Shown here: positions 38,225 to 56,234 of the stretch, one piece after another
Layout of the letters: each line of letters starts with the position of its first letter
Numbering within the stretch: the stretch's first letter is position 1
Made by a program: the position numbers and the translations under genes
Assembly: GCA_963772255.1 (NCBI GenBank)
Contig: CAVYWK010000022.1
Coordinates: 65,388-129,387 of the forward strand
Direction of reading: 5' to 3'
DNA length: 64,000 nucleotides
From: an uncultured Acidobacteriota bacterium
GTDB lineage: Bacteria; Acidobacteriota; UBA4820; DSQY01
Notes under the pieces: generated by a model
The model's database searches: none
What the model saw: the letters and a program-made list of their open reading frames with translations, nothing else
What the model was told of the DNA's origin: nothing

Positions 38225-38431
38225 CGGGAGCGGGGAGCGGGGAGCGGGAGCGGGAAAAGCAGGAGGCGAAGAAGTGGCAAAAGCTGCTCCGTGTGTCCCT
38301 TCAGCTCCCCGCTCCCTGCTCCCGGCTTCCGCCCTTTTTTCGTAAGCGGTGAGCAGTGAGCGGAATAAGATAAAGACGATGCTTCGCGTTCATTCTCGGC
38401 TCCCTGCTCCCCGCTCCCTGCTCCCGGCTTC
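38225..38431. repeat. aceE-aceF intercistronic repeat cluster: GGGAGCG x4 arm, two GCTCCCY arms, and a GTGAGCR array
   Basis: Arms: gggagcggggagcggggagcgggagcggg (38226-38254), cagctccccgctccctgctcccggcttcc (38302-38330), gtaagcggtgagcagtgagcgg (38342-38363), ggctccctgctccccgctccctgctcccggcttc (38398-38431). Confidence 0.85.
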
Positions 38432-41123
38432 ACGAAAACACCGGGTTGGGCTTCTCGGGCGGAATCCCCAACTCTTCCATGGCGCGTTTCACGGTACCCT
38501 CGTCCACTTCGCCCCGCCGGGCGAGCTGGTGGAGGGCCGCCAGGGCGATGAACCGGGCGTCCACCTCGAAGAAGTCCCGGAGGGCGGCGCGGTTGTCGCT
38601 CCGTCCGAAGCCGTCGGTCCCCAGCGCGTGCAGCGGCCCGGGGAACCACTTGGCCACGCCCAGGGGCAGGACCTTGAGATAGTCGCTCGCCGCCACGAAC
38701 ACGCCCGACTCGCCCGCCAGGGCCTTGGCCACGAAGGGCTCCTGCCGGGGCTCCCCGGGGTGGAGGGCGTTCCAGCGCTCCGCGTCGGCGGCGTCGCGGT
38801 AGAGCTCCTTGTAGCTCGTCACGCTCCAGACGTCGGCGGAAACGCCGAAGCGTTCGGCCAGGAGCGCCTGGGCTTTGACGGCCTCGTTGAGGATGGTGCC
38901 GCTTCCGAGCAGGTGCGCCTTGGGACCCTTCGCCGCTGAGGCGCTGAACTTGTACATCCCCCGGAGGATCCCGTCCTCCGTGGAGAAGGGGTGCCCCGCG
39001 GGAGCCGCCGGCATGGGCGGCTGGGCGTAGAACTCGTTCATGACGGTGATGTAGTAGAACGCGTTCTCCTGGTTCACGCACATGCGGCGGATGCCGTCGC
39101 GGATGATCACCGCCAGCTCGTAGCCGTAGGCCGGATCGTAGGCCCGCAGGTTGGGGACGGTGAGCGCCAGGGCGTGGCTGTTGCCGTCCTGGTGCTGGAG
39201 GCCCTCGCCCGCGAGGGTCGTCCTGCCCGCCGTGCCGCCCAGGAGGAAGCCGCGCGCCCGCATGTCCCCCGCGGCCCAGATCAGGTCGCCGATGCGCTGG
39301 AAACCGAACATGGAGTAGAAGATGAAGAAGGGGATCGTGTGGAGACCGTGGGTGGCGTAGGCCGTGGCGGCCGCCACGAAGGAGGACATGGCGCCCGCCT
39401 CGGTGATGCCCTCCTCCAGGATGGCCCCGTCCTTGGCCTCCTTGTAGTAGAGGAGGATGTCCTTGTCCACCGGGTCGTAGAGCTGTCCCGGGTGGGCGTA
39501 GATACCCACCTGGCGGAAGAGGCTCTCCATGCCGAAGGTGCGCGCCTCGTCGGGCACGATGGGGACGATGAGCTTGCCCAGGTTCGGGTCCTTCAGGAGC
39601 TTGGCGAGGAGGTGGACGAAGACCATGGTGGTGGCCACCTCGCGGCCGCCGCTCCCCTCGTAGAACTCCTGGTAAATCTCGTCCGGTGGGGCCTCGATGG
39701 GGTCCACGGCGGTGGTCCGGCGGGGCACGAAGCCGCCCAGCTGACGCCGTTTTTCGAGCAGGTATTTCATCTCCTCGCTGCCCTCGGGCGGCCGGTAGAA
39801 GGGCACCTCGTTCAGGTCCTCGTCGGAGACGGGGATGCCGAAGCGGCTGCGGAACTCCCTCAGCTCCTGCTCGTTGAGCTTCTTCTGCTGGTGGGTGATG
39901 TTCTTGCCCTCGCCCGCCTCGCCCAGGCCGTAGCCCTTGATGGTCTGCGCCAGGACCACCGTGGGCGAGCCCCGGTGCTCCACGGCGGCCTTGTAGGCCG
40001 CGTAGACCTTCTCCGGGTCGTGTCCACCCCGGCGCATCTTGCGGATCTGCTCGTCCGAGTAGTTCTCCACCATGGCGAGCAGCTCGGGAGACTTGCCGAA
40101 GACATCCTGGCGGATGTAAGCCCCGTCCGAGACGGTGTAGCGCTGCATCTGCCCGTCCACGAGCTCGCCCAGCCGCCGCGCCAGGAGCCCGTCCGCGTCC
40201 TTCTCCAGGAGGGGGTCCCAGTCGTCGCCCCAGAGGACTTTGAGCACGTTCCACCCCGCGCCCCGGAAGGCCGCCTCCAGCTCCTGGACGATCTTGCCGT
40301 TGCCGCGCACGGGGCCGTCGAGGCGCTGGAGGTTGCAGTTCACCACGAAGATGAGGTGCTCGAGCTGCTCCCGGGAGGCCAGCGTGATGGCGCCCAGGCT
40401 TTCGGGCTCGTCCATCTCGCCGTCGCCCATGAAGGCCCACACCTTCTGGTCCGAAGCGGGCTTGAGACCCCGATCCACGAGGTACTGGTTGAAGCGCGCC
40501 TGGTAGATGGCCATGATGCTCGTGAGGCCCATGGACACCGTGGGGAACTCCCAGAAGTCGGGCATGAGGTAGGGGTGCGGGTAGGAGGAGAGGCCTCCCC
40601 CGGGCTGGAGCTCCCGCCGGAAGCGCCGCAGGTCCGCCTCGCTCAGGCGCCCCTCTAAAAAGGCTCGCGCATAGATGCCGGGCGACGCGTGGCCCTGGAA
40701 GTAGACGATGTCACCCTCCCGGCCCTCCGTCTTCCCCCTGAAAAAGTGGTTGAAGCCCACTTCCAGAAGTGTCGCCGCCGAAGCGTAGGTGGAGATATGC
40801 CCGCCGATGCCGTGGTCCTCCCGGTTGGCCCGCACCACCATGGCCATGGCGTTCCATCTCAGGATGCTCTTGATGCGGCGCTCGATCTCCCGGTTGCCCG
40901 GAAAGGGCGGCTGGAGGTCCCGCGGGATCGTGTTCAGGTAGGGCGTGTTGGCCGTGAAGTGGGGACGGACGCCGTAGTGCGATGCGCGGATATGGAGGTG
41001 CCACAGGAGCTCCCGCACCCGCTCGGGGCCCTGCTCCTGGAACACGTCGTCCAGCGACTGCACCCACTCCCGGTTCTCGATTTCCTTCGCCACCCCCGGC
41101 TGCGGTTTCTTGGTTTCGCTCAT
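38430..41123 (-). CDS. aceE: pyruvate dehydrogenase E1 component, homodimeric type
   Basis: 897 aa, AceE-like end to end (GGHISTYASAATL, GDGEMDEPES, transketolase-like C-terminal half). Confidence 0.92.
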   Translation of the reverse strand: MSETKKPQPGVAKEIENREWVQSLDDVFQEQGPERVRELLWHLHIRASHYGVRPHFTANTPYLNTIPRDLQPPFPGNREIERRIKSILRWNAMAMVVRANREDHGIGGHISTYASAATLLEVGFNHFFRGKTEGREGDIVYFQGHASPGIYARAFLEGRLSEADLRRFRRELQPGGGLSSYPHPYLMPDFWEFPTVSMGLTSIMAIYQARFNQYLVDRGLKPASDQKVWAFMGDGEMDEPESLGAITLASREQLEHLIFVVNCNLQRLDGPVRGNGKIVQELEAAFRGAGWNVLKVLWGDDWDPLLEKDADGLLARRLGELVDGQMQRYTVSDGAYIRQDVFGKSPELLAMVENYSDEQIRKMRRGGHDPEKVYAAYKAAVEHRGSPTVVLAQTIKGYGLGEAGEGKNITHQQKKLNEQELREFRSRFGIPVSDEDLNEVPFYRPPEGSEEMKYLLEKRRQLGGFVPRRTTAVDPIEAPPDEIYQEFYEGSGGREVATTMVFVHLLAKLLKDPNLGKLIVPIVPDEARTFGMESLFRQVGIYAHPGQLYDPVDKDILLYYKEAKDGAILEEGITEAGAMSSFVAAATAYATHGLHTIPFFIFYSMFGFQRIGDLIWAAGDMRARGFLLGGTAGRTTLAGEGLQHQDGNSHALALTVPNLRAYDPAYGYELAVIIRDGIRRMCVNQENAFYYITVMNEFYAQPPMPAAPAGHPFSTEDGILRGMYKFSASAAKGPKAHLLGSGTILNEAVKAQALLAERFGVSADVWSVTSYKELYRDAADAERWNALHPGEPRQEPFVAKALAGESGVFVAASDYLKVLPLGVAKWFPGPLHALGTDGFGRSDNRAALRDFFEVDARFIALAALHQLARRGEVDEGTVKRAMEELGIPPEKPNPVFS

Positions 41124-41350
41124 AGATTTCCCCTCGCGACTGAGCCGTCCTTCAATTGTTTTTAATTATACTCTCATGAGAAGAGTCAACGCCCTGGGAC
41201 ACCCCTCCAATTCCACCCCGGCGGCACTCCCAGGGCGCCTTAGCAAATGGTTTTCCGCCCGCCCTCGTGGTTCCTCGGGATATCGGGCTCGCGGGGTCAT
41301 GGGGTTGGGGATTTGCTTTTACCCCATCCCCCCATTTCCCTACCTCCCCC

Positions 41351-41475
41351 TCTATCTCTCCGGTACCACCTTGTACCCGTACGCGACGACGCCGGACTCC
41401 CCGGCCTCCTAATCTTGCGGATCTCCAGAGCGACTTTGAGGCCGATGGCCAGGCGCTCGGGCTCGCAGTCGGCGA
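41351..41475 (-). pseudogene. orphan, frameshifted copy of the last ~40 codons of the DUF35 gene
   Basis: It aligns to 43441-43566. The inner 38 nt are identical. The outer ~88 nt carry 13 substitutions (mostly silent or conservative) plus a 1-nt deletion. With the deletion repaired it reads DCEPERLAIGLKVALEIRKI.EAGESGVVAYGYKVVPER-stop. Confidence 0.85.
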
Positions 41476-41610
41476 AAGGCTTGAACCTTTTCCGCGGGGT
41501 GGTAGCATGGCCGCACATCGGGTGACATCGTCTGGAGAGGTTTCGGGGGGCCGTCAATCTGAGATGTGGGCGTTACAAAGAACAGGGACAAGATCAGAGG
41601 GGAGGGACCG

Positions 41611-43284
41611 ATGGAACATCCTGTATGGGATACCGTGAACAAGGCTTTCAGGTGGACGGCTCTAGGCAGCCTGCTGGCGGCGGCCACGATCCTGTGCGCC
41701 GCTCAGGGGGCGGCCCCGGGCAAGGCGGAAGCGGCGCCAAAGGCGGCAAAGAAACCCAACATCGTGGTCATCATGACCGACGACGTGGGCTGGGGCGACC
41801 TGGGATGCTACGGCGGCGGGGAGACCCGCGGGGCGCCGACCCCCCATCTGGACCGCATGGCCGCGGAGGGCATGCGCTTCACCAACTACTACGGCCAGGC
41901 GAGCTGCACCGCTGGACGGGCGTCCTTCATCACGGGGCGCATCCCCCTGCGGACGGCCCTGTCCGTCGTGCTGGCCCCCGGCGACCTGAATGGGATCAGG
42001 GCGGAGGACCCCACCGTGGCCGAGGCCATGAAGCAGCTCGGCTACCGCACGGTGCAGTTCGGCAAGTGGCACCTGGGCGACCGGCCGGACACCTTCCCCA
42101 CCGCGCACGGGTTCGACGAGATGCACCACATGCTGCCCTACTACGCCGGGGTCTACGCCTACGACCACCTGGCCCTCCAGCCCGATTTCCCCATCCACAA
42201 CAAAAAGATGATGGCGATGTGGGAGAGCTACAACCGCAGCGAATGGTCGGGGAAGGCGGGGCAGCCCCCGGAGGTCACCAAGAAGAGGTTCGGCTACGAC
42301 GATCTGGCCACCGCCGACGACATCATGCGTGCCGATGCGATCCAGTACATCCAGGCGCACGCCAAGGACGATCAACCCTTCTTCATGTACCTCTGCTTCA
42401 TGAAGGTGCACAACCCCAACAACCCGTCGCCGCGCTTCAAGGGAAAATCCCCCGGCGGCGGCAACTATCTCGATGCCCTGATGGAGCTGGATGACAACTC
42501 GGGTCAGGTCCTTCAGGCGATCCGCGATGCGGGCATCGGGGAGGACACCCTGGTCGTCTGGACCACGGACAACGGCGCGTGGATCGACGCGTGGCCCGAC
42601 GCCGGCTACACGCCCTTCCGCGGCACGAAGGGAACGAGCTTCGAGGGCGGCTTCCGGGTGCCGGCCATCGTCTGGTGGCCCGGCCACGTGAAGCCGGGCA
42701 CCGTCGCCAACGGCATGATGTGTCACATGGACTGGTGGCCCACCTTCGTGAAGCTGGCCGGCGGCACGCCGCCGACCCACATCTGGAAGGACAACAACGG
42801 CAAGGGCATCGTCTTCGACGGCATCGAGAACAGCGACTACGTTCTGGGCAACGGGCCCTCGAACCGGGACCATTTCTTCTACATCAACGACCTGTCCTTC
42901 GGCGGCGTCAGGGTCGAGAACTTCAAGATGCTGTTCACCTCCAAGGACACTTGGCTGGGACCCGAGCTCAACCTGGATTTCCCGGCGGTCTACAACCTCT
43001 ACTGGGATCCGGGCGAGCAGTACGACATGATGTTCCGAGGTGCGGCTCCCACCCGGGGCGACCTGCGGACCTCTCCCGGCCGGTACTCGGGAGAGGACCA
43101 CGGCTGGATGAGCATCGTCATCGGGCCCTACACGAGCCAGTTCTTTGGTGAGCTCGCGAAGTATCCCAACCGGCCCACCATCCCCTCGGCGGGGTCCATG
43201 GATCAGTTGGCACGTGCGGTGAACGATCCGCCGGAGCTCATGCGCCTATTGGAAATTCATCCACCCGAGCCACAGGGGAAGTAG
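41611..43284 (+). CDS. arylsulfatase (formylglycine-dependent sulfatase family)
   Basis: It has a signal peptide, PNIVVIMTDDVGWGDLG, and the CTAGRASFITGR (C-x-A-x-R) FGly motif. ATG 41611 has GGGGAGGG upstream. The ORF track starts at 41566. Confidence 0.85.
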   Translation: MEHPVWDTVNKAFRWTALGSLLAAATILCAAQGAAPGKAEAAPKAAKKPNIVVIMTDDVGWGDLGCYGGGETRGAPTPHLDRMAAEGMRFTNYYGQASCTAGRASFITGRIPLRTALSVVLAPGDLNGIRAEDPTVAEAMKQLGYRTVQFGKWHLGDRPDTFPTAHGFDEMHHMLPYYAGVYAYDHLALQPDFPIHNKKMMAMWESYNRSEWSGKAGQPPEVTKKRFGYDDLATADDIMRADAIQYIQAHAKDDQPFFMYLCFMKVHNPNNPSPRFKGKSPGGGNYLDALMELDDNSGQVLQAIRDAGIGEDTLVVWTTDNGAWIDAWPDAGYTPFRGTKGTSFEGGFRVPAIVWWPGHVKPGTVANGMMCHMDWWPTFVKLAGGTPPTHIWKDNNGKGIVFDGIENSDYVLGNGPSNRDHFFYINDLSFGGVRVENFKMLFTSKDTWLGPELNLDFPAVYNLYWDPGEQYDMMFRGAAPTRGDLRTSPGRYSGEDHGWMSIVIGPYTSQFFGELAKYPNRPTIPSAGSMDQLARAVNDPPELMRLLEIHPPEPQGK

Positions 43285-43308
43285 GACCCGAAGCGCCATG
43301 AGTCGCAC

Positions 43309-43343
43309 AAAAAGGGCGGGCACGATGCCCGCCCTTTCTTTTC
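43309..43343. terminator. bidirectional rho-independent terminator
   Basis: The sequence aaaaaGGGCGGGCacgatGCCCGCCCtttctttt has an 8-11 bp GC stem with A-run and T-run flanks. It sits between the convergent sulfatase gene and the DUF35 operon. Confidence 0.8.
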
Positions 43344-43440
43344 GCTTTGCCGCTTTGCTTCTTTGCTTCTTGCTTCTTTGCTTTCCTTGCTTCTTCTTTG
43401 TATCTCTTCGTGGCCTCGTGGTCCCGTGGGCTCGTGGATC
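43343..43440. repeat. pyrimidine-rich short-period arrays (GCTTYTT-type 7-9 nt units, then four CGTGGNNN octamers)
   Basis: The sequence cgctttgccgctttgcttctttgcttcttgcttctttgctttccttgcttcttctttg ... cttcgtggcctcgtggtcccgtgggctcgtgg lies directly downstream of the DUF35 stop. Confidence 0.75.
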
Positions 43441-43441
43441 T

Positions 43442-43837
43442 CTATCTCTCCGGTACCGCCTTATACCCGTACGCAATAACTCCCGACTCCCCGGCCTCCT
43501 GGATCTTGCGGAACTCCAGGGAGACCTTGAGGCCGATGGCCAGGCGCTCGGGCTCGCAGTCGGCGATCTGGCACAGGAGGCGCGTGCCGTCGCTCAGCTC
43601 CACGACGCCCATGCAGTAGGGGGCCTCATCCGAGAAACCCCTGGGGGGCGTTCTGATAACGGTATGTGAGATGACCTGACCCTCTTCGGGCAGAGTGTAG
43701 GCCTTGAACTTGCGGCTTTGGCAATCATCGCAGATCAGGCGCGGGGGGAAGAAGACCTTGCCGCACTTGGCGCACTTGGCCGCTTCCATGCGGTAGCGCT
43801 GGGGGGTGTTCCTGCGGACGATGGCTGGCGTGAGCAT
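43442..43837 (-). CDS. DUF35 OB-fold/zinc-ribbon protein (scaffold of the archaeal-type thiolase/HMG-CoA synthase complex)
   Basis: 131 aa. It has the zinc ribbon CAKCGKVFFPPRLICDDC followed by an OB-fold part. Its ATG overlaps the thiolase stop. Confidence 0.85.
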   Translation of the reverse strand: MLTPAIVRRNTPQRYRMEAAKCAKCGKVFFPPRLICDDCQSRKFKAYTLPEEGQVISHTVIRTPPRGFSDEAPYCMGVVELSDGTRLLCQIADCEPERLAIGLKVSLEFRKIQEAGESGVIAYGYKAVPER

Positions 43838-44994
43838 CACAGCACCTCCAGGATGTGGACGACGGCGCTGCCGCCGGAACCGCCCATGTTCTGGGCGAGG
43901 CCGCGGCGCACGTTCTTGAGCTGGCGCTTGCCGGCCTCGCCGCGGAGCTGGGTGACGATCTCGTGGATCTGGGCGATGCCCGTGGCGCCCACGGGGTGCC
44001 CCTTGGACTTGAGGCCGCCGGAGGGGTTCACGGGGTACTTGCCGTCGCGCGCCGTGAAGCCTTCGCGCGTGGCCTTGCCGCCCTGGCCCTTCTTCACGAC
44101 GCCCAGGGCTTCGAGCACGCAGATCTCGGCGATGGTGAAGCAGTCGTGGACCTCGGCGAAGTCGATGTCCAGGGGTTTCACGCCGGCCATCTTGTAGGCG
44201 CGGGCGGCGGCGTCGGCGGTGGACCTGAGCCAGGTCATGTCGGCGCGCTGGTGGAGGGCGATGGTGTCCGTGGCGTGGGCCGATGCGGCGATCTTGACGA
44301 GGGGTTTCTTCTTGAGCTTTTTGGCCATCTCCAGGGGGCAGATGATGACCGCCGCCGCGCCGTCCGTAATAGGCGAGCAGTCCAGGATGTTGAGGGGATC
44401 GGCCACCTTCACGCTGTTGATGACCTGGTCCACCGTGATCTTCATGCGGTACTGGGCGTGGGGGTTGAGCAGGCCGTTGTCGTGATTCTTCACGGCCACC
44501 TGGGCCAGGTCTTCCCGCTTGGTGCCGTACTTGTGCATGTGGGCGGTGGCCATGAGGGCGTAGAGCCCCGGGAAGGTGGCGCCGTGGAAGGCCTCGTAGT
44601 CCTGGTCCGCGGCCGTGGCCAGGGCGTAGGTGGCCTGGGCGCCGCTCACGTCGGTCATCTTCTCCACGCCGCCGCACAGGACGATGTCATGCATTCCCGA
44701 GGCGACGTAGGCGATGCCCGTCCTCAAGGCCATGCCGCCGGAGGCGCAGGCCGATTCCACGCGCACGCCGGGGATGGGCGCCTGGCCGAGGTAGTCCGCG
44801 AGCAGGGAGCCGATGTGCTCCTGGCCGGCGAAGAGCCCCGGGCTCATGCAGCCCGCCACGAGGCCGTCGATGTGGTCCACGCCGGCGTCGTCCATGGCCT
44901 CCAGGGCCGCCTTCACGAATAGGTCCCTCAGGGAGTCGTTCCAGAGCTCCCCGAAGTCCGTCATGCCGATGCCGATGATGGCGATGTCGCGCAT
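43837..44994 (-). CDS. archaeal-type acetyl-CoA C-acetyltransferase (thiolase)
   Basis: 385 aa: [16 protein letters not shown].., the active-site Cys context VESACASGG, and C-terminal [15 protein letters not shown]. Confidence 0.9.
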
Positions 44995-44998
44995 GGCC

Positions 44999-46051
44999 TC
45001 AGTCCTCCACGTTCTTCCGGATCTTGCGGCGGAATTTCACGTACGTGCCGTAGTCCAGATAGAAGGGGTTGTTGTCGAGATAGTCCCGGGTCTTTTTCGC
45101 CTTGCCCTGGACCTTGGGAAGGGCCTTGGTGGCGGTGAAGATGAAGCCGTCCGAACCCGCGCCCGAGCCGAAGGAGCACATGAGGATGGCGTCGCCCGGC
45201 TTGGCCTCGTCCAGGATGGCCGAGAGGCCCAGGGGCGAGGCGCCCGAGTAGGTGTTGCCCAGCGTCGGCACGAGCAGGCCCGTCTTCACCTGGTCCTCGG
45301 TGAAGCCCAGGTCCTTGGCCATGCGCACGGGGAACTTGCCGTTGGGCTGGTGGAAGACGATGTACTTGAAGTCCTTGGGCTTGGCGCCCGCCTTCTTGAG
45401 GAGGCCCTCCACGCCGCCGCGCACGTGTTTGAAGTAGGCCATGTCGCCCGTGAAGCGGCCCGCGTGGCGCGGGTAGTGCATGTACTCCCGGCGCCAGAAA
45501 TCGGGGGTGTCGCTCATGTAGGAGAACTGGCAGTCCAGGCTGGCCACCACGTTCGTCTTGCCCATGATGAAGGCCGCGCCGCCCGCCGCCGCCGAGTACT
45601 CCAGCGCGTCTCCGGGCGCTCCCTGGGAGGTGTCCGAGCCGATGCCGAGGGCGTACTCCACCTCGCCCGACTTGACCAGGCCGAAGGCCAGGAACATGCC
45701 CTCCGAACCGGCCTTGCACGCGAAGGAGAGATCCGCGCAGTGGCAGTCGTTCACGGCCCCGAGGACCTCCGCCACGGCCGTGCCCGAAGGCTTCACGGCG
45801 TAGGGGTGCGACTCGGAACCCACGTAGATCGCCCCGATCTTGGCGGCGTCGATGCCCGCCCGGCGGAGGGCGTTCTTGGCCGCCTCCACCGAGATGGTGA
45901 TGGTGTCCTGGTCCGGACCGGGGACCGATTTTTCTCTCAGCATCAGACCCTTTTTGTAGCTGGGCGCATCCGCTCCCCAGACCTTGGCGATCTCCTCCAC
46001 CTTGATCCGGTAGCGGGGAATGTACGCCCCGTATCCCACGATTCCTACCAT
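44999..46051 (-). CDS. hydroxymethylglutaryl-CoA synthase, archaeal type
   Basis: Starts [22 protein letters not shown] (GAGGAGG upstream). It also has [22 protein letters not shown] and HQPNGKFP. Confidence 0.9.
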
Positions 46052-46292
46052 GAAGACCTCCTCAGTCGAGCGCTTGGCATGGCGAAACGAGAAAGAGGGT
46101 AATGTACTGGTTTTCTCGTGTGGAGGCAAGGCCGGAGGGTGGAGCAAACGGTCCTAAGCCGAGTCCCGTCCCCATTCTTGAAGGGAGGAATCGGGAGGGT
46201 GCGCCGTGTCCTGTCTTTGTTGCCTATGGACTCTGAGCGGGTCGCTCGAAGCCTCAATCTTCAGGGTGTTCGCGGTTCAGGGTGCCTTCCCC

Positions 46293-47225
46293 TCAGCGGC
46301 CGCCTCGACCGCCTCCGGCTCCGCCGCCTCCGGGGCCGCCGCCAGAGCCACCGGAGCCACCCGATCCCCCGGCGCCGCCGGAACCGCTGCCCCCGCTGCC
46401 CCCGCTCCCTGCCCCAGAAGATCCCGCGCCAGGCGGACCCCAGCCTCTGCCGGGACCTCCCTGCTGGCGGCCCCAGCCCTGTCCCCGACCCGCGCCCGGG
46501 CCCCGAAGACCCGCCTCCTCCGCCCACTGCCGCATGAGCGCCGAAGGCAATGCTCCAGCTCCCACCTGGCGGAACATCGCTTGAAGGACATCCGCATCGG
46601 CCATGCCGCAGCGACGTCCCACGAAGAACGCCGACGGGATGCGCCGGATCTCTTTGTCGTCCAGGGACGCGGGCACGGCACCGAGCACCATCAGGGTGGC
46701 TTTGTCCCCCACTTTCAGGACCCTCAGATGGGCGAGGGCTTCGCTTCCCGCCAGGACGCGTGGGAGCAGGTCGGTTCGGAGCGCTTTCTGGACCGCATCC
46801 AGGTCGGAGGAGGTCACTTCCCCCGTTTCCAGCGTGTCGGCCAGATCTTCCACGGCGCTCCATTCATACCCCGATGGGGAGTCCTTCAACCCCCGCGCCT
46901 TCATCCCGTCCACCAGGAGGCGTGCGGCGCGCGTGTCTTCCACCGCGCCCTCGGCCCGGGCTCGCAGGCCTTCCGACGAGGCGCCCTTCGAAATGCACTC
47001 CACCATGCGCTCCACGAAGCGCTCCGTGGGAAGCCCTTCGGCCTCGAGCACGTCCAGGCTCGACAGGGCCGGGATGAGGGCGGACTCGGGCGTGGAGGCG
47101 CGCTGGGCCGCGGCCAGGATGCGGCCCATGCCGGTCTGGGGAACCTCGGCGGGCTGGGCGAGCGGCGCGGTGACCTGGGCCAAGCCGAGGAAAACAGCGG
47201 CGGTGAACATCCATAGCTTTTTCAT
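46293..47225 (-). CDS. secreted hypothetical protein with a ~90-aa Gly/Ser/Arg-rich C-terminal tail
   Basis: 310 aa with a signal peptide (MKKLWMFTAAVFLGLAQVTAPLA). It is the last gene of the ECF sigma operon. The tail is GPGAGRGQGWGRQQGGPGRGWGPPGAGSSGAGSGGSGG... Confidence 0.55.
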   Translation of the reverse strand: MKKLWMFTAAVFLGLAQVTAPLAQPAEVPQTGMGRILAAAQRASTPESALIPALSSLDVLEAEGLPTERFVERMVECISKGASSEGLRARAEGAVEDTRAARLLVDGMKARGLKDSPSGYEWSAVEDLADTLETGEVTSSDLDAVQKALRTDLLPRVLAGSEALAHLRVLKVGDKATLMVLGAVPASLDDKEIRRIPSAFFVGRRCGMADADVLQAMFRQVGAGALPSALMRQWAEEAGLRGPGAGRGQGWGRQQGGPGRGWGPPGAGSSGAGSGGSGGSGSGGAGGSGGSGGSGGGPGGGGAGGGRGGR

Positions 47226-47226
47226 G

Positions 47227-47829
47227 TCAGAGCCTCAACACGGCATTTTCGTTGCCCATGCCGTCCTGCCTCAGCTCGAGGGCGTTGGGATCCGATTCAT
47301 ATCGCGACCCATCCACCAGAAACAGGTATTCGTGCCGGCCCTGAGGAAGGCTCACCTGGATCGTCCAGATCCCATCCTTGCCACGGTTCATGGGTGCCTT
47401 TTCCGGGTTCCAGTCGTTGAAGGTTCCCACGAGGGAGACGGACTTGGCCTTGGGCGCGTAGAAGACGAAGGTGACGGGCGCCAGTGGCCCGAGGGCGGCC
47501 TGGGGACGGGAGACCATCTTGGCTTTCATGGACGCCGTGTCGCCGGGAGAAGGGACCGCGTGTTGCCCCGCATGGCGCCAGATTCCCCCGAGAATGCCCA
47601 GCAGGACGACAAAAATCGCCGCCCTGTAGGCCCACACCGTTCGAGGCTGCTGCGGGTTGGCCCAGAGGCGGCGCCATTTGGACCTGTGGGGCGGAGGGAG
47701 CTTGGCAAGCCCGGAGGCGACGGTCGAGGCCAGGCTCTCCGGAGGGAGATCCTGCCTCAAGTTGCGGAGGGATTCGCCCAGGGCCCGCAACCCGGGTTCC
47801 TCGGATTCGGATGGTTCCTTGAAGCTCAT
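47227..47829 (-). CDS. single-pass membrane protein, putative anti-sigma factor, with an extracytoplasmic CBM48/AMPK-beta-like (E-set) domain
   Basis: Its ATG overlaps the sigma gene stop (ATGA). It has a TM helix (AAIFVVLLGILGGIW). The C-terminal part is VTFVFYAPKAKSVSLVGTFNDWNPEKAPM..DGIWTIQVSLPQGRHEYLFLVDG. Confidence 0.6.
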   Translation of the reverse strand: MSFKEPSESEEPGLRALGESLRNLRQDLPPESLASTVASGLAKLPPPHRSKWRRLWANPQQPRTVWAYRAAIFVVLLGILGGIWRHAGQHAVPSPGDTASMKAKMVSRPQAALGPLAPVTFVFYAPKAKSVSLVGTFNDWNPEKAPMNRGKDGIWTIQVSLPQGRHEYLFLVDGSRYESDPNALELRQDGMGNENAVLRL

Positions 47830-48398
47830 GTCGCCTCTCCCGATTCCCCGCCCGCCATGCAGTCGCGTAGCAGGGTCAAGCCTCGCTGTATCCTCATCTT
47901 CGCCGCGGAGAGCCCGATGCGGAGCTGGTCCGCCACCTCCTGGAGAGAGAGGTCCTCCTGGTAGCGAAGGAGGAGGGCCGCCCGCAGGGTGCTGGGCACC
48001 CGGCCGAGACATCCCCTCACCTGGGCCTCGTCCTGGGCCGCCATGAGGGTGTCCACCGCGGTGGGCTGGTCAGACGCCATCACGGCCTCCGCATCATCCG
48101 AAAGCGGCCGCTCCCGCTCCCATGCACGCCGGCGCCGCTTGCCCGCATCGTAGCAGACGTTCACGGCGATGCCGCACAGCCAGCTGTAGAAACGCGTCCG
48201 CCCGTCGAATTTGCCCAGGTCCCTGTACGCCCTGAAGAAGGTCTCCTGTACCACATCCGATGCCTCCGAGGGGCCGCCCATCATTTTGAAGGCCAGGTTG
48301 TAAAGGGCCGGAGTGTACGCGTCTACGATGGGCGTGAAGCGGTCCGGTTCCCCGTCCAGCACCCGATCGAGCAACGCCGTCACCACCCGCTCCTCCAT
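47826..48398 (-). CDS. ECF (sigma-70 family group IV) RNA polymerase sigma factor
   Basis: 190 aa. Region 2: YTPALYNLAFKMMGGPSEASDVVQETFFRAY..FYSWLCGIAVN. Region 4: EDLSLQEVADQLRIGLSAAKMRIQRG. Confidence 0.9.
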   Translation of the reverse strand: MEERVVTALLDRVLDGEPDRFTPIVDAYTPALYNLAFKMMGGPSEASDVVQETFFRAYRDLGKFDGRTRFYSWLCGIAVNVCYDAGKRRRRAWERERPLSDDAEAVMASDQPTAVDTLMAAQDEAQVRGCLGRVPSTLRAALLLRYQEDLSLQEVADQLRIGLSAAKMRIQRGLTLLRDCMAGGESGEAT

Positions 48399-48552
48399 CA
48401 GCCCTCCCCCTCCCCCTCATTATTTCCCTTAATCCCCGAAAGGTCACGCTCGCCCGATTCTCGCCGGCCCCTGAGGAAAGAACGGCGGGGGCCCGTGCAT
48501 AATGCCCCGGGCTCCCGCCTTAGGAAGAGGCGAAAGCTGAAAGGAAGAAAGG

Positions 48553-49308
48553 TCAGTCCAGCCAGAGGGGAACACCCTGGTCGTCGCGGAGCTGGAGCAC
48601 CTCGCCCGTGGGCCGGGTCACCGAGAAGGCGACCCATTTGCCCTGGCAGAGGGCCATGCGGATCCGGACCGTCTCGCCCACCTGGAAGGTGAAGCCGTTC
48701 TGCGTCATGTACCAGTAGGGCCCCACGGACACGGTGTAGGAGATTCCCGCGCCCGTCTGCAAGGTCAGGGTGTTGTTGTGTGTGCCCAGCCCGCAGTTCA
48801 CGGCCGCGAGAGGGCCTTCCACCTCCATGAGGGTGGAAAGGTCCACGCTGAGGCCGGCGCCGTATCCGCCCATGCGGTGCCCGTTGCCGTTGTGGCCGCC
48901 GCCGTAGCCGTTCCCTCGCCCGTTCCCGCCCGTCCAGAGCGGGAGACCGTCGTCGCTCCGCAAGCTGATCTGTTTGCCCGTAGTCAGGTCGGTCACCTCG
49001 AAGGCCACCACTCCCATGGCACAGTTCGCCACCTTGGCGCTCACCTGGTCACCCACGGCCAGCGAGAAGTTGTTGGCCACCAGGTAGAAGTAGGGGCCCA
49101 GATTGACCGTGAGCGCTCCTTCCTGGGTGGAATTCATGGTGAAGCCCGGATGGCTCAGGCCGTAGTCCATCGCCACCGCCGTCACTTCGCCGGTCACCGT
49201 CCTCACCGTGGAGAGGTCCACCTTGTTGCCACCCTTTTTCTTGGCTCCCGCAAACGCAACCGCCGTCGCCATGATCAGCACCATCGCAATTATTGCCGCT
49301 CGTTTCAT
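48553..49308 (-). CDS. secreted protein made of two homologous ~100-aa domains joined by a Gly/Asn/His-rich linker
   Basis: Starts MKRAAIIAMVL (AAGGAGGA upstream). Both halves share VDLST..GPY(F/W)Y..F(S/T)..VG(D/E)..C..VAF(E/S)VT..TG..L(S/Q)LR(S/D)D(D/Q)G(L/V)PLW. Confidence 0.6.
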   Translation of the reverse strand: MKRAAIIAMVLIMATAVAFAGAKKKGGNKVDLSTVRTVTGEVTAVAMDYGLSHPGFTMNSTQEGALTVNLGPYFYLVANNFSLAVGDQVSAKVANCAMGVVAFEVTDLTTGKQISLRSDDGLPLWTGGNGRGNGYGGGHNGNGHRMGGYGAGLSVDLSTLMEVEGPLAAVNCGLGTHNNTLTLQTGAGISYTVSVGPYWYMTQNGFTFQVGETVRIRMALCQGKWVAFSVTRPTGEVLQLRDDQGVPLWLD

Positions 49309-49436
49309 GCGATCCTCCTTGCCGTCTGGTCCCTCTCGGCGACCGCCCAAGGGCCGCCTCCACCCCGATATTTCCGGCACCGGGGTCGGGGTCACATCGG
49401 GCGGCTTTTCCCCCACCCCGCGATTCGGGGGTTAGC

Positions 49437-49813: not shown

Positions 49814-51085
49814 ATGCCTGACCTCCACCTGGAAAACCTTTTCGATGGCTCTCCGTCGCATCTCCCGTCCGATCTGTTCGACCGCATGGCTCCCGCCATG
49901 GAGGGCCTGCGCCACGCACTGCTCTCCCTGTCGAAGGATCCCGGCCATCCCTTTCACCACATGCCCCCGTCCCCGGGGGTCGTGCACGCCGTAAGGAGCC
50001 AGGCCAAGGCCCTTCGGAGGGAGGCCAAAATCCTTGTGGTGGTGGGGATCGGTGGGTCGTCGCTGGGGTCCAGGGTCCTGTGCGAACGCCCCGGCGGGGG
50101 CGTCCGGTTCTTCGAGGGTCTGGACCCCCAGAACATCTCCGCGCGACTCGGTGATATTCCGTGGGATCAGGCCGCGCTCAACATCGTTTCAAAGTCCGGG
50201 GGAACGCTCGAGACTCTCGCCAATTCGGCTCTGGCGCTGGAACGGCTCAAGCGGGCCGCTCCCGATCGGTGGCGGCACCGCGTGGTGGTGACGGCGTCTC
50301 CGGGAGAAGGCCGTCTTCAGAAGTGGGCACTGGAGGAGGGCATTCCCACTCTGGACATCCCCCCGGGCGTGGGCGGGCGCTATTCCGTGCTGACGCCGGT
50401 GGGGCTGCTTCCGGCCGCCTTTGATGGCATCGATCCGGCGGCCCTCGTCACGGGAGCGCGGGCGGGCGCCGACAAGGCCCTGCTGCTCCAGGGAGCCGCC
50501 AACCCGGCCCTCACGCTGGCGCTCACGCTCTTTTCTCTTTACTCCCAGGGCAAGCTCGAGGTGGACCTCTGGGGCTATGGGGCCAGGTGTCACCTGCTCG
50601 CCCTGTGGCTCCAACAGCTCTGGGGGGAATCCCTCGGCCGCAGATTGGGCGAGGGCGCCGGAGCGCCGAAGGTCGGCCCCTCTCCGCTGGCATGCCTGGG
50701 GAGCGAGGATCAGCACTCCCTGCTTCAGCTCTTCGTGGATGGTCCGCCCCACCGGTGGGTGCTCCTGCTCACGGCGGACTCGGCGGGGCCAGCGTTCTCG
50801 GCAAGGGCCCGGAGCTTCATCGGCCTCCCCGAGCGAGCGCTCAACGCGGGCTCGGTTCAGCGGGCTCTCTGGCAAGGCACCGGGCGGGCGCTGACGGAGG
50901 CGGGCGTCCCAACGGTGCGTTATGACCTGGGTGAAGCCGACGCTTCGTCCCTCGGGGAGGCGTTCTTCGTCCTCATGGCCGCCACGATTTACACCGCTGC
51001 CCTGTTCGAGATCGACCCCTTCGGCCAACCCGGGGTCGAGGCCGGCAAGCGATTCACCAGGGACTTCCTGGAGTCCGGAGCCTAG
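49814..51085 (+). CDS. pgi: glucose-6-phosphate isomerase (short bacterial/archaeal type)
   Basis: 423 aa with the motifs VVVGIGGSSLGSRVL, SKSGGTLET, GGRYSVLTPVGLLP and EDQHSLLQLF. Confidence 0.85.
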   Translation: MPDLHLENLFDGSPSHLPSDLFDRMAPAMEGLRHALLSLSKDPGHPFHHMPPSPGVVHAVRSQAKALRREAKILVVVGIGGSSLGSRVLCERPGGGVRFFEGLDPQNISARLGDIPWDQAALNIVSKSGGTLETLANSALALERLKRAAPDRWRHRVVVTASPGEGRLQKWALEEGIPTLDIPPGVGGRYSVLTPVGLLPAAFDGIDPAALVTGARAGADKALLLQGAANPALTLALTLFSLYSQGKLEVDLWGYGARCHLLALWLQQLWGESLGRRLGEGAGAPKVGPSPLACLGSEDQHSLLQLFVDGPPHRWVLLLTADSAGPAFSARARSFIGLPERALNAGSVQRALWQGTGRALTEAGVPTVRYDLGEADASSLGEAFFVLMAATIYTAALFEIDPFGQPGVEAGKRFTRDFLESGA

Positions 51086-54612: not shown

Positions 54613-54654
54613 TCACACCGCTTCTACCGCCATGGCGACCCCATTTCCTCCCCC
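54613..54654 (-). pseudogene. displaced, diverged copy of the thiolase 3' end ([13 protein letters not shown]-stop)
   Basis: It differs from the in-gene copy (55051-55092, [13 protein letters not shown]-stop) at 12/42 nt. Six of the differences are silent third-position changes. It is followed by a period-8 array (CCTACTCA type, 54581-54610). Confidence 0.8.
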
Positions 54655-54829
54655 CAGGTCGCGCCTCACGCGCTCCCCCAGGGGGCCTCAGCCGGCCCCC
54701 TAGGGCGGGCCCTTCGTGCCCTGTGACCCCCTGCCCTCATGCGGGAAGCCCTTCGCTCGGGGGAACCTCCTCGTTCCCCCGCACCCCCTCGCCGCCTCGG
54801 CGGCAAATCGCCAAGGTCCGCCCGCTGAA
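54655..54829 (-). mobile_element. ~175-bp GC-rich structured element E' (distal copy)
   Basis: It is homologous to 54872-55050. The ~75 nt next to the gene-end copy are near-identical. The remaining ~100 nt are diverged but keep an 8-bp hairpin through a compensatory change. Confidence 0.7.
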
Positions 54830-55050
54830 CTACATCGATTCGATGGCCATGGCGACGCCGTTCCCGCCGCCCAGGCGTCGCGCGCAAGCACGCTCCCCCC
54901 AGGGGGGCTCTGCCGCCCCCCTAGGGCGGATGCTTCGCATCCTGTGACCCCGGGCCCTCCCGTCAGGAGACCTCTGCTCGGGGGAACCTCCTCGTTCCCC
55001 CGCACCCCCTCGCCGCCTCGGCGGCAAATCGCCAAGGTCTGCCCGCTGAA
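54830..55050 (-). mobile_element. second exact copy of the thiolase 3' end (54830-54871) plus ~179-bp structured element E (54872-55050)
   Basis: 54830-54871 is identical (42/42) to 55051-55092. E contains perfect hairpins GGGGGAAC-ctcctc-GTTCCCCC (54980-55001), AGGGGGGC-tctgcc-GCCCCCCT (54901-54922) and GGATGC-ttc-GCATCC (54928-54942). Confidence 0.75.
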
Positions 55051-56234
55051 CTACATCGATTCGATGGCCATGGCGACGCCGTTCCCGCCGCCGAGGCACA
55101 GGCTCACAATCCCCCTCCGGGCGCCCCGGTCCTTCATGGCGTAGAGGAGGGTGAGCAGGCAACGGGTGCCCGATGCGCCGATGGGGTGCCCCAGGGCCAC
55201 GGCACCGCCGTTCACGTTCACCTTTTCGGCGGGAGGCCCAGGACCTTGAGGAGGGCGCAGGACTGGGCTGCGAAGGCCTCGTTGAGCTCGAAGAGGTCCA
55301 CGCTTTTCAGGTCCCAGCCCGCCTTGGTTGCCGCGGCCCGCACGGCGGGTTCAGGGGTCATCATGACCCACCGGGGTTCGAGCCCAGAAGTGGCGTAGGC
55401 CACGATGCGCCCCAGCGGAGCCACGCCCTTCTTCTCCGCCACAGACGCCGTGGTCACCACCACCGCCGCCCCGCCGTCGTTGATTTGGCTCGCGTTCCCC
55501 GCGGTCACTACGCCGTCCTTCTTGAAGGCCGGGCGGAGCTTGGCCAGGCCCTCGAGGGAGACATCGGCGCGGATACCCTCGTCCGCGCGGAACTGGACGG
55601 GGTCCCCCTTCTTCTGCGGGATGGGCACGGCGAAGGTCTCCCCGTCGAACCTGCCCGCAGCCCACGCGGCGGCGGCCCGGCGGTGGCTCTCCACGGAATA
55701 GGCGTCCATCTCCTGGCGGGAGATCTGATGCTCGCCGGCCACGAGCTCGGCGGTGAGTCCCATGTGCTGGCCATCGTATGCGTCGGTGAGGCCGTCGGCC
55801 ACCAGGGAGTCGGTCACCTCCCCGTGTCCCAAGCGGAAGCCCGTGCGCCCCTGCCTCAGCAGGTAGGGCGCGTTGGACATGGACTCCATGCCGCCCGCCA
55901 GGATCAACGCCGCGTCTCCCGCCCTGATGGCCTGGGCCGCCAGCATGACCGCCTTGAGCCCCGAACCGCAGACCTTGTTCACGGTGAAGGCGGCCACCGA
56001 GACGGGCAAGCCGGCCTTGAGGGCCGCCTGCCGCGCCGGGTTCTGTCCCACTCCCGCCTGGAGGACGTTGCCCAGGATGACCTCTTCTACCTCTGCGGGA
56101 TCCACCTTGCCGCGCGAGAGGGCCTCCCGGACGGCCACCGAACCGATTTCAGGTGCGGTCATGGCCGCCAGCGGGCCCTGGAATTTGGCGATGCCCGTTC
56201 GGGCTCCTGCGAGAATGACGATGGGATCCGACAT
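55051..56234 (-). pseudogene. bacterial-type acetyl-CoA C-acetyltransferase (thiolase II), one frameshift near the 3' end
   Basis: Starts [20 protein letters not shown] (GGAGGA upstream) and has [14 protein letters not shown] 55218..56279 stops after ..GLPPKR. Adding one base at ~55227 restores ..[60 protein letters not shown]-stop (55051). Confidence 0.85.

What the first reader, a model, noticed from the sequence alone, without database searches (positions are those of the whole stretch)
41351..43566. Arylsulfatase cassette bracketed by two versions of the DUF35 gene's last ~40 codons
43441-43566 (the in-gene 3' end of the DUF35 gene) is repeated at 41351-41475. Between the copies lie only the sulfatase gene with its own upstream region, a strong bidirectional terminator and short-period arrays.

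The inner 38 nt of the two copies are identical (41438-41475 = 43529-43566). This could be a crossover core. The outer ~88 nt differ by 13 substitutions that are mostly silent or conservative (K-K, I-I, S-S, G-G, V-V, Y-Y; S/A, F/I, I/V, A/V) plus a 1-nt deletion that kills the distal copy.

The distal copy is followed by its own GC hairpin and then the aceE upstream region, as expected for a displaced native gene end. The sulfatase therefore looks like a ~2 kb single-gene insertion that brought a replacement 3' end for its target.
Basis: partly seen in the sequence, partly recalled or inferred. Interest (0 to 1): 0.72.

Follow-up and report, generated by a model that had tools for sequence, protein, structure and literature searches.

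The report
Displaced gene end beside acquired sulfatase
A dead 125-base copy of the end of a mevalonate-pathway gene sits beyond a neighbouring sulfatase gene; it is a scar of ordinary recombination at a gene-swapping hotspot, not a new kind of mobile element.

Summary
The repeat is real. Window 41350-41475 is a decayed direct copy of the last ~41 codons plus stop of the intact DUF35 gene (43440-43566). The two copies share an identical 38-nt stretch. They bracket only a sulfatase gene, its upstream block, a terminator and short arrays.

Related contigs change the interpretation.
- A relative (L081, sulfatase 93% aa) has the same DUF35-then-convergent-sulfatase layout but no second copy. Its homology to the window stops exactly at the inner edge of the distal copy.
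- Another relative (L177) has HMGCS-thiolase-DUF35-arrays-terminator, then a different reverse-oriented cargo gene, then aceE. So the arrays and terminator are the native 3' flank of DUF35.
- Five lineages with 86-93% nt identical aceE have five different upstream contexts.
- No genome with DUF35 directly abutting aceE was found.
- The 38-nt "core" is mostly conserved coding sequence, and there is no recombinase.

Best reading: the distal copy is the displaced 3' end of a second DUF35 allele. It was left when an L081-like DUF35-tail-plus-sulfatase segment was joined to a DUF35-aceE locus. The join was either a single crossover of a circularised fragment or one-sided homology plus an illegitimate join. 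This is a known kind of event with a modest level of interest.

The parts
43442..43837 (-). Intact DUF35 gene (Zn-ribbon/OB-fold protein, 131 aa). It is the last gene of the HMGCS (46051-44999), thiolase (44994-43837), DUF35 operon.
   Evidence: Pfam PF12172 and PF01796. Operon order is conserved in 80 loci.
43440..43566 (-). Proximal repeat copy: the in-gene last ~41 codons, the TAG stop and 2 further nt.
   Evidence: Closest to the L081 tail, with 7 differences in 122 nt.
43529..43566 (-). 38-nt stretch identical to 41438-41475 (codons ADCEPERLAIGLK).
   Evidence: It is also 38/38 in L081 and 37/38 in L166.
43345..43437 (.). Short-period (8-nt) arrays in the DUF35 3' flank.
   Evidence: TRF. 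Homologous arrays follow DUF35 in L081 and L177.
43304..43344 (.). Bidirectional GC-rich terminator hairpin between the convergent DUF35 and sulfatase genes.
   Evidence: I8; z = -3.8 and -4.2. Conserved in L081 and L177.
41611..43284 (+). Sulfatase gene (557 aa, N-terminal hydrophobic signal-like segment, C-T-A-G-R formylglycine-type motif). It is under purifying selection.
   Evidence: Pfam PF00884. dN/dS against L081 is 0.037/0.266. Homologues of 81-84% identity lie in unrelated contexts.
41476..41610 (+). Sulfatase upstream block. It has a putative -35 TTGAAC (41481-41486) and -10 TAGCAT (41503-41508) with a 16-nt spacer, conserved in L081.
   Evidence: Alignment. This is a weak consensus match that the promoter scan did not report.
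41469..41479 (.). Rearrangement junction. The distal copy ends at 41475 and homology to L081 begins at 41476-41480. The 6-nt TCGGCG (41469-41474) is also present at the corresponding place in L081.
   Evidence: Reading TCGGCG as junction microhomology is an inference.
41350..41475 (-). Distal copy: a pseudogene fragment of the DUF35 3' end. It has a 1-nt deletion, CAG>TAG, and F>I, I>V and A>V changes.
41124..41349 (-). Spacer of 226 nt between the distal copy and the aceE start. It includes a GC-rich hairpin (core 41299-41335). No relative examined shares this sequence.
38430..41123 (-). aceE (PDH E1). This is the conserved right flank of the variable interval. Homology to relatives starts at its start codon.

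Best explanation
The distal copy (41350-41475) is the displaced, now decaying 3' end of a second DUF35 allele that once sat about 226 nt upstream of aceE.

A segment with the layout seen in L081 was joined to that locus by host recombination, not by an element-encoded recombinase. That segment comprised the DUF35 3' end, arrays, terminator, a convergent sulfatase and its upstream block.

Two routes fit the anatomy.
- (a) A ~2.09 kb donor fragment circularised at the TCGGCG microhomology. It then integrated by a single (Campbell-type) crossover inside the 126-nt homology, most likely in the 38-nt identical stretch. This duplicates exactly that homology.
- (b) Homology-facilitated illegitimate recombination: a homologous anchor in or upstream of DUF35, with an illegitimate join at TCGGCG inside the resident gene.

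Either route leaves the live DUF35 gene intact, adds a functional sulfatase, and orphans the old gene end.

The event took place in an interval (DUF35 terminator to aceE start codon) that is a gene-content hotspot in this Acidobacteriota clade.

Shown: the repeat, the junction position, the L081 and L177 layouts, and the decay pattern. Inferred: the direction of transfer, the circular intermediate, and the role of the microhomology.
For: - Repeat and junction.
- L081 is collinear with the window from 41480 to 43930. It diverges exactly at the inner edge of the distal copy.
- Homology between the two copies ends at the stop codon plus 2 nt, as expected for alleles with different downstream contexts.
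- Polarised differences: 6-7 changes are unique to the distal copy, including a frameshift, a nonsense codon and hits on invariant residues. A further 5-6 third-position changes are derived on the proximal branch, some shared with L081. Third-position excess has P = 0.019.
- Distal-specific decay is ~0.05 per site. That is less than half of the sulfatase dS between the window and L081 (0.27). The junction therefore looks younger than that split.
- L177 shows the same site holding a different reverse-oriented cargo between the DUF35 terminator and aceE.
- Five different contexts lie upstream of aceE in close relatives.
- No difference falls in the 38 nt: P ~ 0.008 under a uniform model and ~0.014 allowing for constraint.
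- Experimental precedent: single crossovers of circular molecules carrying part of a target gene end gave 109-950 bp duplications. HFIR joints usually show 3-10 bp microhomology (PMC3240628).
- Natural precedents of 3'-end displacement: PMC5361080 and PMC2935791.
Against: - No relative with DUF35 directly upstream of aceE (an empty site) was found.
- The 226-nt aceE upstream spacer matches no relative, so its 'native' status is unverified.
- The direction of transfer cannot be fixed. After removing decay, the distal tail is no closer to L166/L177 than to L081.
- Evidence for a breakpoint inside DUF35 is weak. The tail/5' divergence ratio for window versus L081 (0.17) is matched by L166 versus L177 (0.17), and Fisher P = 0.33.
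- DUF35 generally has a higher dS than the thiolase.
- The TCGGCG microhomology is 6 GC-rich nt with a 1-nt offset, compared against a contig that is ~23% divergent in that block.
Confidence: 0.6

Rival explanations
1. The same kind of junction arose in the opposite direction. The DUF35-sulfatase arrangement is resident and vertically inherited, as in L081. The incoming DNA was an aceE-side fragment carrying a foreign DUF35 3' end plus the 226-nt spacer. It was anchored by homology in aceE and joined illegitimately just upstream of the sulfatase promoter, deleting whatever lay there (region Z of L081).
For: - L081 has a different sequence left of the sulfatase promoter.
- Homology of every aceE relative ends at the aceE start codon, so that position is a recurrent recombination boundary.
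- The spacer plus distal copy is unique to the window.
- HFIR typically deletes recipient DNA (PMC3240628).
Against: There is no positive evidence that the window's aceE has a different origin from its neighbours. dS values to L177 are 0.49 for aceE and 0.34-0.63 for the HMGCS, thiolase and DUF35 genes, which is not discordant. This model gives no reason for the complete identity of the 38-nt stretch.
Confidence: 0.2
2. A purely intragenomic origin. The lineage once carried two HMGCS-thiolase-DUF35 operons in the same orientation, arising by duplication or by an earlier additive acquisition. A microhomology-mediated deletion then removed everything from upstream of the sulfatase promoter to the middle of the second DUF35 gene.
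For: - The distal copy is truncated at one clean breakpoint with a TCGGCG microhomology.
- The position of the operon is very fluid among relatives. PGI-H-T-D is seen in L004, L006, L166 and L177. H-T-D followed by the sigma block and aceE is seen in L002. H-T-D is convergent with aceE-E2 in L113.
Against: No relative examined has two operon copies. There is no further DUF35 core match in the 64 kb window. This model needs an extra unobserved intermediate.
Confidence: 0.1
3. A site-specific mobile cassette. The sulfatase unit targets the DUF35 3' end through the 38-nt core as an att site and carries a replacement gene end. This would resemble prophages and islands that insert into the 3' ends of genes.
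For: An identical 38-nt direct repeat brackets a single gene with its own upstream block. The absence of any change in the core is mildly non-random.
Against: - The 2.1 kb holds no recombinase, only a sulfatase.
- The window has no tRNA genes and no Rfam hits.
- The core is conserved coding sequence in relatives that lack any insertion.
- L081 has the sulfatase at the same place without a second core copy.
- L177 has a different cargo without any DUF35 repeat.
- Sulfatase homologues of 81-84% identity sit in unrelated contexts with no DUF35 fragment.
Confidence: 0.04
4. An assembly chimera between co-existing strains, with no biological junction.
For: The relatives are all metagenome-assembled. 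Contigs of one related population break 10-33 nt after the DUF35 stop in seven samples, which shows that this region is hard to assemble.
Against: A k-mer chimera would switch paths inside the shared 38-mer, giving 5' DUF35, core, then the other tail. It would not create a sulfatase-promoter/core junction that shares only 6 nt. The distal copy also carries pseudogene-type lesions.
Confidence: 0.03

Closest known systems
Single-crossover (Campbell-type) integration of a circular molecule carrying a truncated end of the target gene, and homology-facilitated illegitimate recombination (HFIR). Described in S. pneumoniae, A. baylyi, P. stutzeri and E. coli (PMC3240628).
   Same: - Foreign DNA is added next to a short homologous anchor.
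- The single-crossover outcome duplicates the homologous gene-end segment. The experimental range is 109-950 bp, and this case is 126 bp.
- A short microhomology lies at the non-homologous joint.
- No element-encoded recombinase is involved.
   Different: This is a natural, old event inferred from sequence in an uncultivated Acidobacteriota lineage. The donor, the recipient and the circular intermediate were not observed. Classical HFIR usually deletes recipient DNA rather than duplicating it.
C-terminal or 3'-end displacement at rhs, CDI and T6SS effector-immunity loci (PMC2935791, PMC5361080).
   Same: An incoming segment that shares the conserved upstream part of a gene brings a new 3' end plus linked cargo. 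The old 3' end is pushed downstream as an orphan fragment. The proposed mechanism is HFIR.
   Different: The target here is a housekeeping gene of the mevalonate-entry complex. The new and old ends encode essentially the same peptide. There is a single displacement rather than an array. The cargo is a metabolic enzyme rather than a toxin/immunity pair.
Prophages and islands that integrate into the 3' end of a protein gene and supply a replacement end. The e14 / phage 21 insertion in E. coli icd is the example, recalled from general knowledge and not checked here.
   Same: The intact gene end is supplied by the incoming DNA, and a displaced native end with many synonymous differences lies beyond the insert.
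   Different: No integrase, no phage or island genes, and an insert of only 2.1 kb. The same gene adjacency exists in L081 without the displaced end.
Flexible genomic islets, meaning hotspots of gene gain and loss between conserved core genes. This is a general concept cited from knowledge.
   Same: The flanks are conserved (the HMGCS-thiolase-DUF35 operon and aceE-aceF). Related lineages carry different cargo: a sulfatase, an AAA_14/DUF4143 gene, or other genes.
   Different: The left flank itself moves among relatives. The scar of one exchange event is preserved here.

Membership tests
Integrase-mediated integrative element with a replacement 3' gene end | A tyrosine or serine recombinase gene inside the element, next to an att site | tested here: not met
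   The only real ORF between the repeats is the sulfatase (PF00884). No recombinase domain was found.
Integrase-mediated integrative element with a replacement 3' gene end | Identical core (attL/attR) flanking the element, beyond what conservation explains | tested here: inconclusive
   A 38-nt identical core is present. However, it is 38/38 in L081 and 37/38 in L166, and its first 24 nt are identical in L001-L004. Residual P ~ 0.01.
Integrase-mediated integrative element with a replacement 3' gene end | The same element with the same two ends recurs in other genomes, or empty sites exist | tested here: not met
   L081 has the sulfatase beside DUF35 but no distal repeat. No empty DUF35-aceE site was found.
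Additive integration by single crossover or HFIR (host recombination) | A homologous anchor shared by the incoming and resident DNA at one side of the insert | tested here: met
   126-nt homology that includes a 38-nt identical run.
Additive integration by single crossover or HFIR (host recombination) | An illegitimate joint with 3-10 bp microhomology at the other side | tested here: inconclusive
   TCGGCG is present at the junction in the window (41469-41474) and at the corresponding place in L081. There is a 1-nt offset, and the surrounding block is only 77% identical.
Additive integration by single crossover or HFIR (host recombination) | A donor-type contiguous arrangement exists elsewhere | tested here: met
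   L081 is collinear over window 41480-43930 and runs on with unrelated sequence beyond the junction.
Additive integration by single crossover or HFIR (host recombination) | A recipient-type (pre-insertion) arrangement exists elsewhere | tested here: not met
   No DUF35-spacer-aceE locus was found among 80 genome loci, 80 metagenome loci and 6 close aceE contigs. The nearest is L177, with other cargo at the site.
Flexible genomic islet / insertion hotspot | Conserved flanking genes with different intervening genes in close relatives | tested here: met
   The window, L177, L173, L174 and L175/176/178 have five different contexts upstream of aceE at 86-93% nt identity.
Integron gene cassette | An attC recombination site at the cassette end and an intI/attI platform | not tested
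   No attC model was run. The unit has its own upstream block and terminator. No intI-like ORF lies between 36 and 50 kb in the ORF list.

The most novel reading that the evidence does not exclude
The DUF35-terminator-to-aceE interval might be serviced by a recombinase-free cassette-exchange process. In this reading, small circularised single-gene fragments (a sulfatase here, an AAA_14/DUF4143 gene in L177) repeatedly enter by a single crossover in the ultra-conserved DUF35 3' end. Each would carry a replacement gene end and could be lost again by recombination between the 38-nt identical repeats.
Probability: 0.07. Interest if true: 0.6.

Novelty: new member of a known kind. Interest (0 to 1): 0.3.

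Why it matters
This is a clean natural example, in an uncultivated Acidobacteriota lineage, of how a single metabolic gene can be added next to an essential operon without damaging it. The incoming DNA supplies a working gene end, and the old end is left behind as a datable scar. The locus also marks the interval between the mevalonate-entry operon and the pyruvate dehydrogenase operon as a gene-content hotspot. The direct repeats predict that the sulfatase can be lost again by homologous recombination. It does not reveal a new mechanism or a new type of mobile element.

Tried and rejected
- **Exact-sequence look-ups.** Look-ups of the window's DUF35 and sulfatase proteins found nothing on record.
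- **JGI metagenome scan with aceE.** It gave no close relatives (best 77%) and no DUF35-aceE adjacency. L113 has the operon convergent downstream of aceE.
- **aceE upstream region.** Aligning it with L002 and L083 gave no usable homology.
- **Composition.** The sulfatase is 63-68% GC against 65-70% in the flanks, so there is no compositional sign of foreign origin.
- **Non-coding RNA and tRNA.** There are no tRNA genes and no Rfam families in the window, so no tRNA-type integration site.
- **Promoter scan.** It found no sigma-70-like site in 41000-43900. I first read TTGACT...TATAAT upstream of aceE as a strong promoter, but its spacer is only 13 nt, so I dropped the claim.
- **Recombination breakpoint inside DUF35.** This rested on dS of 0.51 for codons 1-90 against 0.23 for the tail versus L081. 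It did not survive controls with other pairs.
- **Scar at the sigma-block insertion.** I looked for a similar scar at the 3.3 kb sigma-block insertion and found none.
- **Repeats around the L177 cargo.** None flank it.
Full report
**1. Observation**

All the relevant genes lie on the minus strand, in this order:
- an ECF sigma factor (48398-47826), an anti-sigma factor and a hypothetical gene Y (47225-46293);
- HMG-CoA synthase (46051-44999), a thiolase (44994-43837) and a 131-aa DUF35 Zn-ribbon/OB-fold protein (43837-43442);
- beyond the region in question, aceE (41123-38430) and the E2 gene (38211-36874).

HMGCS, thiolase and DUF35 form a tripartite complex in other organisms (PMC12960953).

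A sulfatase gene on the plus strand (41611-43284, PF00884, E = 6e-56) is convergent with DUF35.

The last ~41 codons of DUF35, its stop and 2 further nt (43440-43566) recur as a direct repeat at 41350-41475. The inner 38 nt are identical. That sequence occurs only twice in the window, against 0 expected by chance.

The remaining 88 nt carry 12 substitutions and a 1-nt deletion in my alignment. Once the frame is repaired, the distal copy also has CAG>TAG.

The terminator hairpin (43304-43344) and the 8-nt-period arrays (43345-43437) are confirmed. So is a GC-rich hairpin after the distal copy.

**2. Who the relatives are**

The thiolase query retrieved Acidobacteriota and Thermoanaerobaculia MAG contigs. 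The thiolases of L001 and L002 are 93% identical to the window's, and those of L003, L004 and L006 are 85-87% identical.

Protein searches followed by contig look-ups added closer material:
- L081: sulfatase 93% aa, 90.8% nt.
- L166: DUF35 87%, thiolase 94%.
- aceE relatives L173 (97% aa, 93% nt), L174 (91%), L175/L176/L178 (90%) and L177 (90%).

**3. What the relatives show**

(a) **L081 has the same layout without the second copy.** It carries DUF35, arrays, terminator and a convergent sulfatase. It is collinear with the window from 41480 to 43930. Left of that point it has unrelated sequence and no DUF35 fragment. The homology boundary therefore coincides with the inner edge of the distal copy. 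Position 41475/41476 is a true rearrangement junction. The L081-type arrangement is the parental state of the sulfatase side.

(b) **L177 has the same site with different cargo.** Its order is PGI, HMGCS, thiolase, DUF35, arrays, terminator, then a 91-aa ORF plus a reverse-oriented AAA_14/DUF4143 gene, then aceE and E2. It follows that:
- DUF35 and aceE are linked in this subclade;
- the interval between them carries different reverse-oriented cargo;
- the arrays and terminator are the native 3' flank of DUF35 rather than part of a sulfatase cassette.

(c) **aceE's upstream side is highly variable.** Homology of all close aceE relatives to the window begins at the aceE start codon. Upstream contexts differ in every lineage:
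- L173: GAF-like, S24-like and tRNA-synthetase genes.
- L174: PGI directly adjacent.
- L175/L176/L178: an unknown gene of at least 504 aa.
- L177: the AAA_14 cargo.
- More distant L002 and L083: the sigma, anti-sigma, Y block.

(d) **The predicted empty site was not found.** No locus has the DUF35 stop directly upstream of aceE.

(e) **More distant sulfatase homologues are elsewhere.** Homologues of 81-84% identity (L082, L163, L164) lie in unrelated, co-directional contexts.

**4. The nature of the two copies**

Homology between the copies stops 2 nt after the stop codon. This is what is expected of two alleles of one gene that come from different downstream contexts. It is not expected of a tandem duplication.

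I polarised the 13 differences using seven relatives.
- Six or seven are unique to the distal copy. They include the deletion, the nonsense change, and F>I, I>V and A>V at residues that are invariant or nearly so in about 45 homologues. This is post-inactivation decay.
- Five or six are third-position changes derived on the proximal branch. Columns 83 and 89 are shared with L081, while the distal copy keeps the state seen in L166, L177 and L001-L004.

Overall, 8 of 12 substitutions are at third positions (P = 0.019). The distal copy was therefore a functional allele somewhat outside the (proximal + L081) pair before it was orphaned.

Its private decay (~0.05 per site) is less than half of the sulfatase dS between the window and L081 (0.27). 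The junction thus looks younger than that split, consistent with point 3a. This estimate is rough.

**5. The 38-nt "core"**

The core is 38/38 identical in L081 and 37/38 in L166. Its first 24 nt are identical in L001-L004. Coding conservation therefore explains much of the identity.

Allowing for that, the probability that none of the 13 events fell in the core is still about 0.01. This mild excess is what one would expect if strand exchange occurred there. It does not require a site-specific att site.

**6. Mechanism**

The anatomy is a duplication of exactly the homologous gene-end segment around an insert. This matches the product of a single crossover between the chromosome and a circular molecule carrying a truncated end of the target gene. 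That outcome has been seen experimentally with 109-950 bp duplications (PMC3240628).

The same paper summarises HFIR as a homologous anchor at one end and an illegitimate joint with 3-10 bp microhomology at the other.

At the window junction, the sequence TCGGCG (41469-41474) ends the DUF35 core. The same hexamer lies at the corresponding place upstream of the sulfatase promoter in L081. This is compatible with three things: microhomology-mediated circularisation of a 2.09 kb donor fragment, an HFIR joint, or a deletion joint. It is an inference.

I tried to locate a breakpoint inside DUF35.
- Against L081, dS is 0.51 for codons 1-90, 0.23 for the tail and 0.27 for the sulfatase.
- In the last 93 nt of the thiolase, the window is closest to L177 and L166 (1-2 differences, against 5 to L081). 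In the tail it is closest to L081 (7 differences, against 14-17).

These trends point to a mosaic, but they do not survive controls. L166 versus L177 has the same tail/5' ratio, Fisher P = 0.33, and DUF35 is generally faster than the thiolase. The choice between a single crossover and HFIR, and the direction of transfer, remain open.

**7. Rivals**

- **Mirror-image event.** An incoming aceE-side fragment brings a foreign DUF35 end into a resident DUF35-sulfatase locus. This is not excluded.
- **Deletion between two operon copies.** Possible, but it needs an unobserved intermediate.
- **Recombinase-driven cassette.** Disfavoured. There is no recombinase. L081 and L177 lack flanking repeats. 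The core is ordinary coding sequence.
- **Misassembly.** Unlikely, because a k-mer chimera would switch inside the shared 38-mer and would not create the promoter/core junction. It can only be excluded with reads.

**8. Comparison with known systems, and verdict**

The closest known phenomena are 3'-end (C-terminal) displacement at rhs and T6SS effector loci (PMC2935791; PMC5361080) and the experimentally characterised single-crossover and HFIR integrations (PMC3240628). The locus behaves as a flexible islet between two conserved operons.

The finding is real and neatly documents how a sulfatase was added without disrupting an essential gene. It is a new instance of a known process rather than a new system.

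Its interpretation is partly supported: the displaced end is supported, but the self-contained cassette with a crossover core and the empty site are not.

Noticed in passing
window 46132-49436: A 3.3 kb block lies between PGI (49814-51085, plus strand) and the HMGCS promoter. It contains an unknown gene, an ECF sigma factor, an anti-sigma factor with a carbohydrate-binding-like C-terminus, and hypothetical gene Y. Relatives L177, L166, L004 and L006 have PGI directly next to HMGCS. In L002 and L083 the same sigma block sits directly upstream of aceE. No flanking repeat scar was found.
   Followed up: partly
window 54650-55100; L081 481-561; L085 7695-7772; L004 3784-3845: An intergenic element of about 240 nt is present as two tandem copies in the window. 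Related copies occur in other Acidobacteriota contigs, including one just upstream of the sulfatase promoter in L081. It may be a dispersed repeat family.
   Followed up: no
window 41123-41127 and loci L173-L178: Homology between the window and aceE relatives of 86-93% nt identity ends at the aceE start codon. Even the promoter-proximal region is not shared with the 97% aa relative L173. In contrast, L177 and L175/176/178 share about 145 nt of aceE upstream sequence with each other.
   Followed up: partly
L166-L172: All seven Logan contigs that encode the same DUF35 protein (P0122) terminate 10-33 nt after the DUF35 stop. The cause could be population heterogeneity there, or assembly breaks at the short-period arrays.
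   Followed up: no
L081 ~2432-2580 versus window 43285-43303: L081 has about 141 extra nucleotides between the sulfatase stop and the shared terminator. The window lacks them.
   Followed up: no
window 43837-46051 versus L001, L002, L166, L177: The HMGCS and thiolase genes are about 88-95% identical at the nucleotide level to relatives whose aceE, E2 and sigma-block genes are only 48-77% identical at the protein level. The cause could be strong codon-level constraint or exchange of the operon among lineages.
   Followed up: partly
L002 13150-13260; window 43345-43437; L177 3705-3744: Short 8-nt-period arrays (CATCGCTT, CTTTGCTT, CAACGAG types) recur in intergenic regions downstream of genes in this clade. 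Their function is unknown.
   Followed up: no
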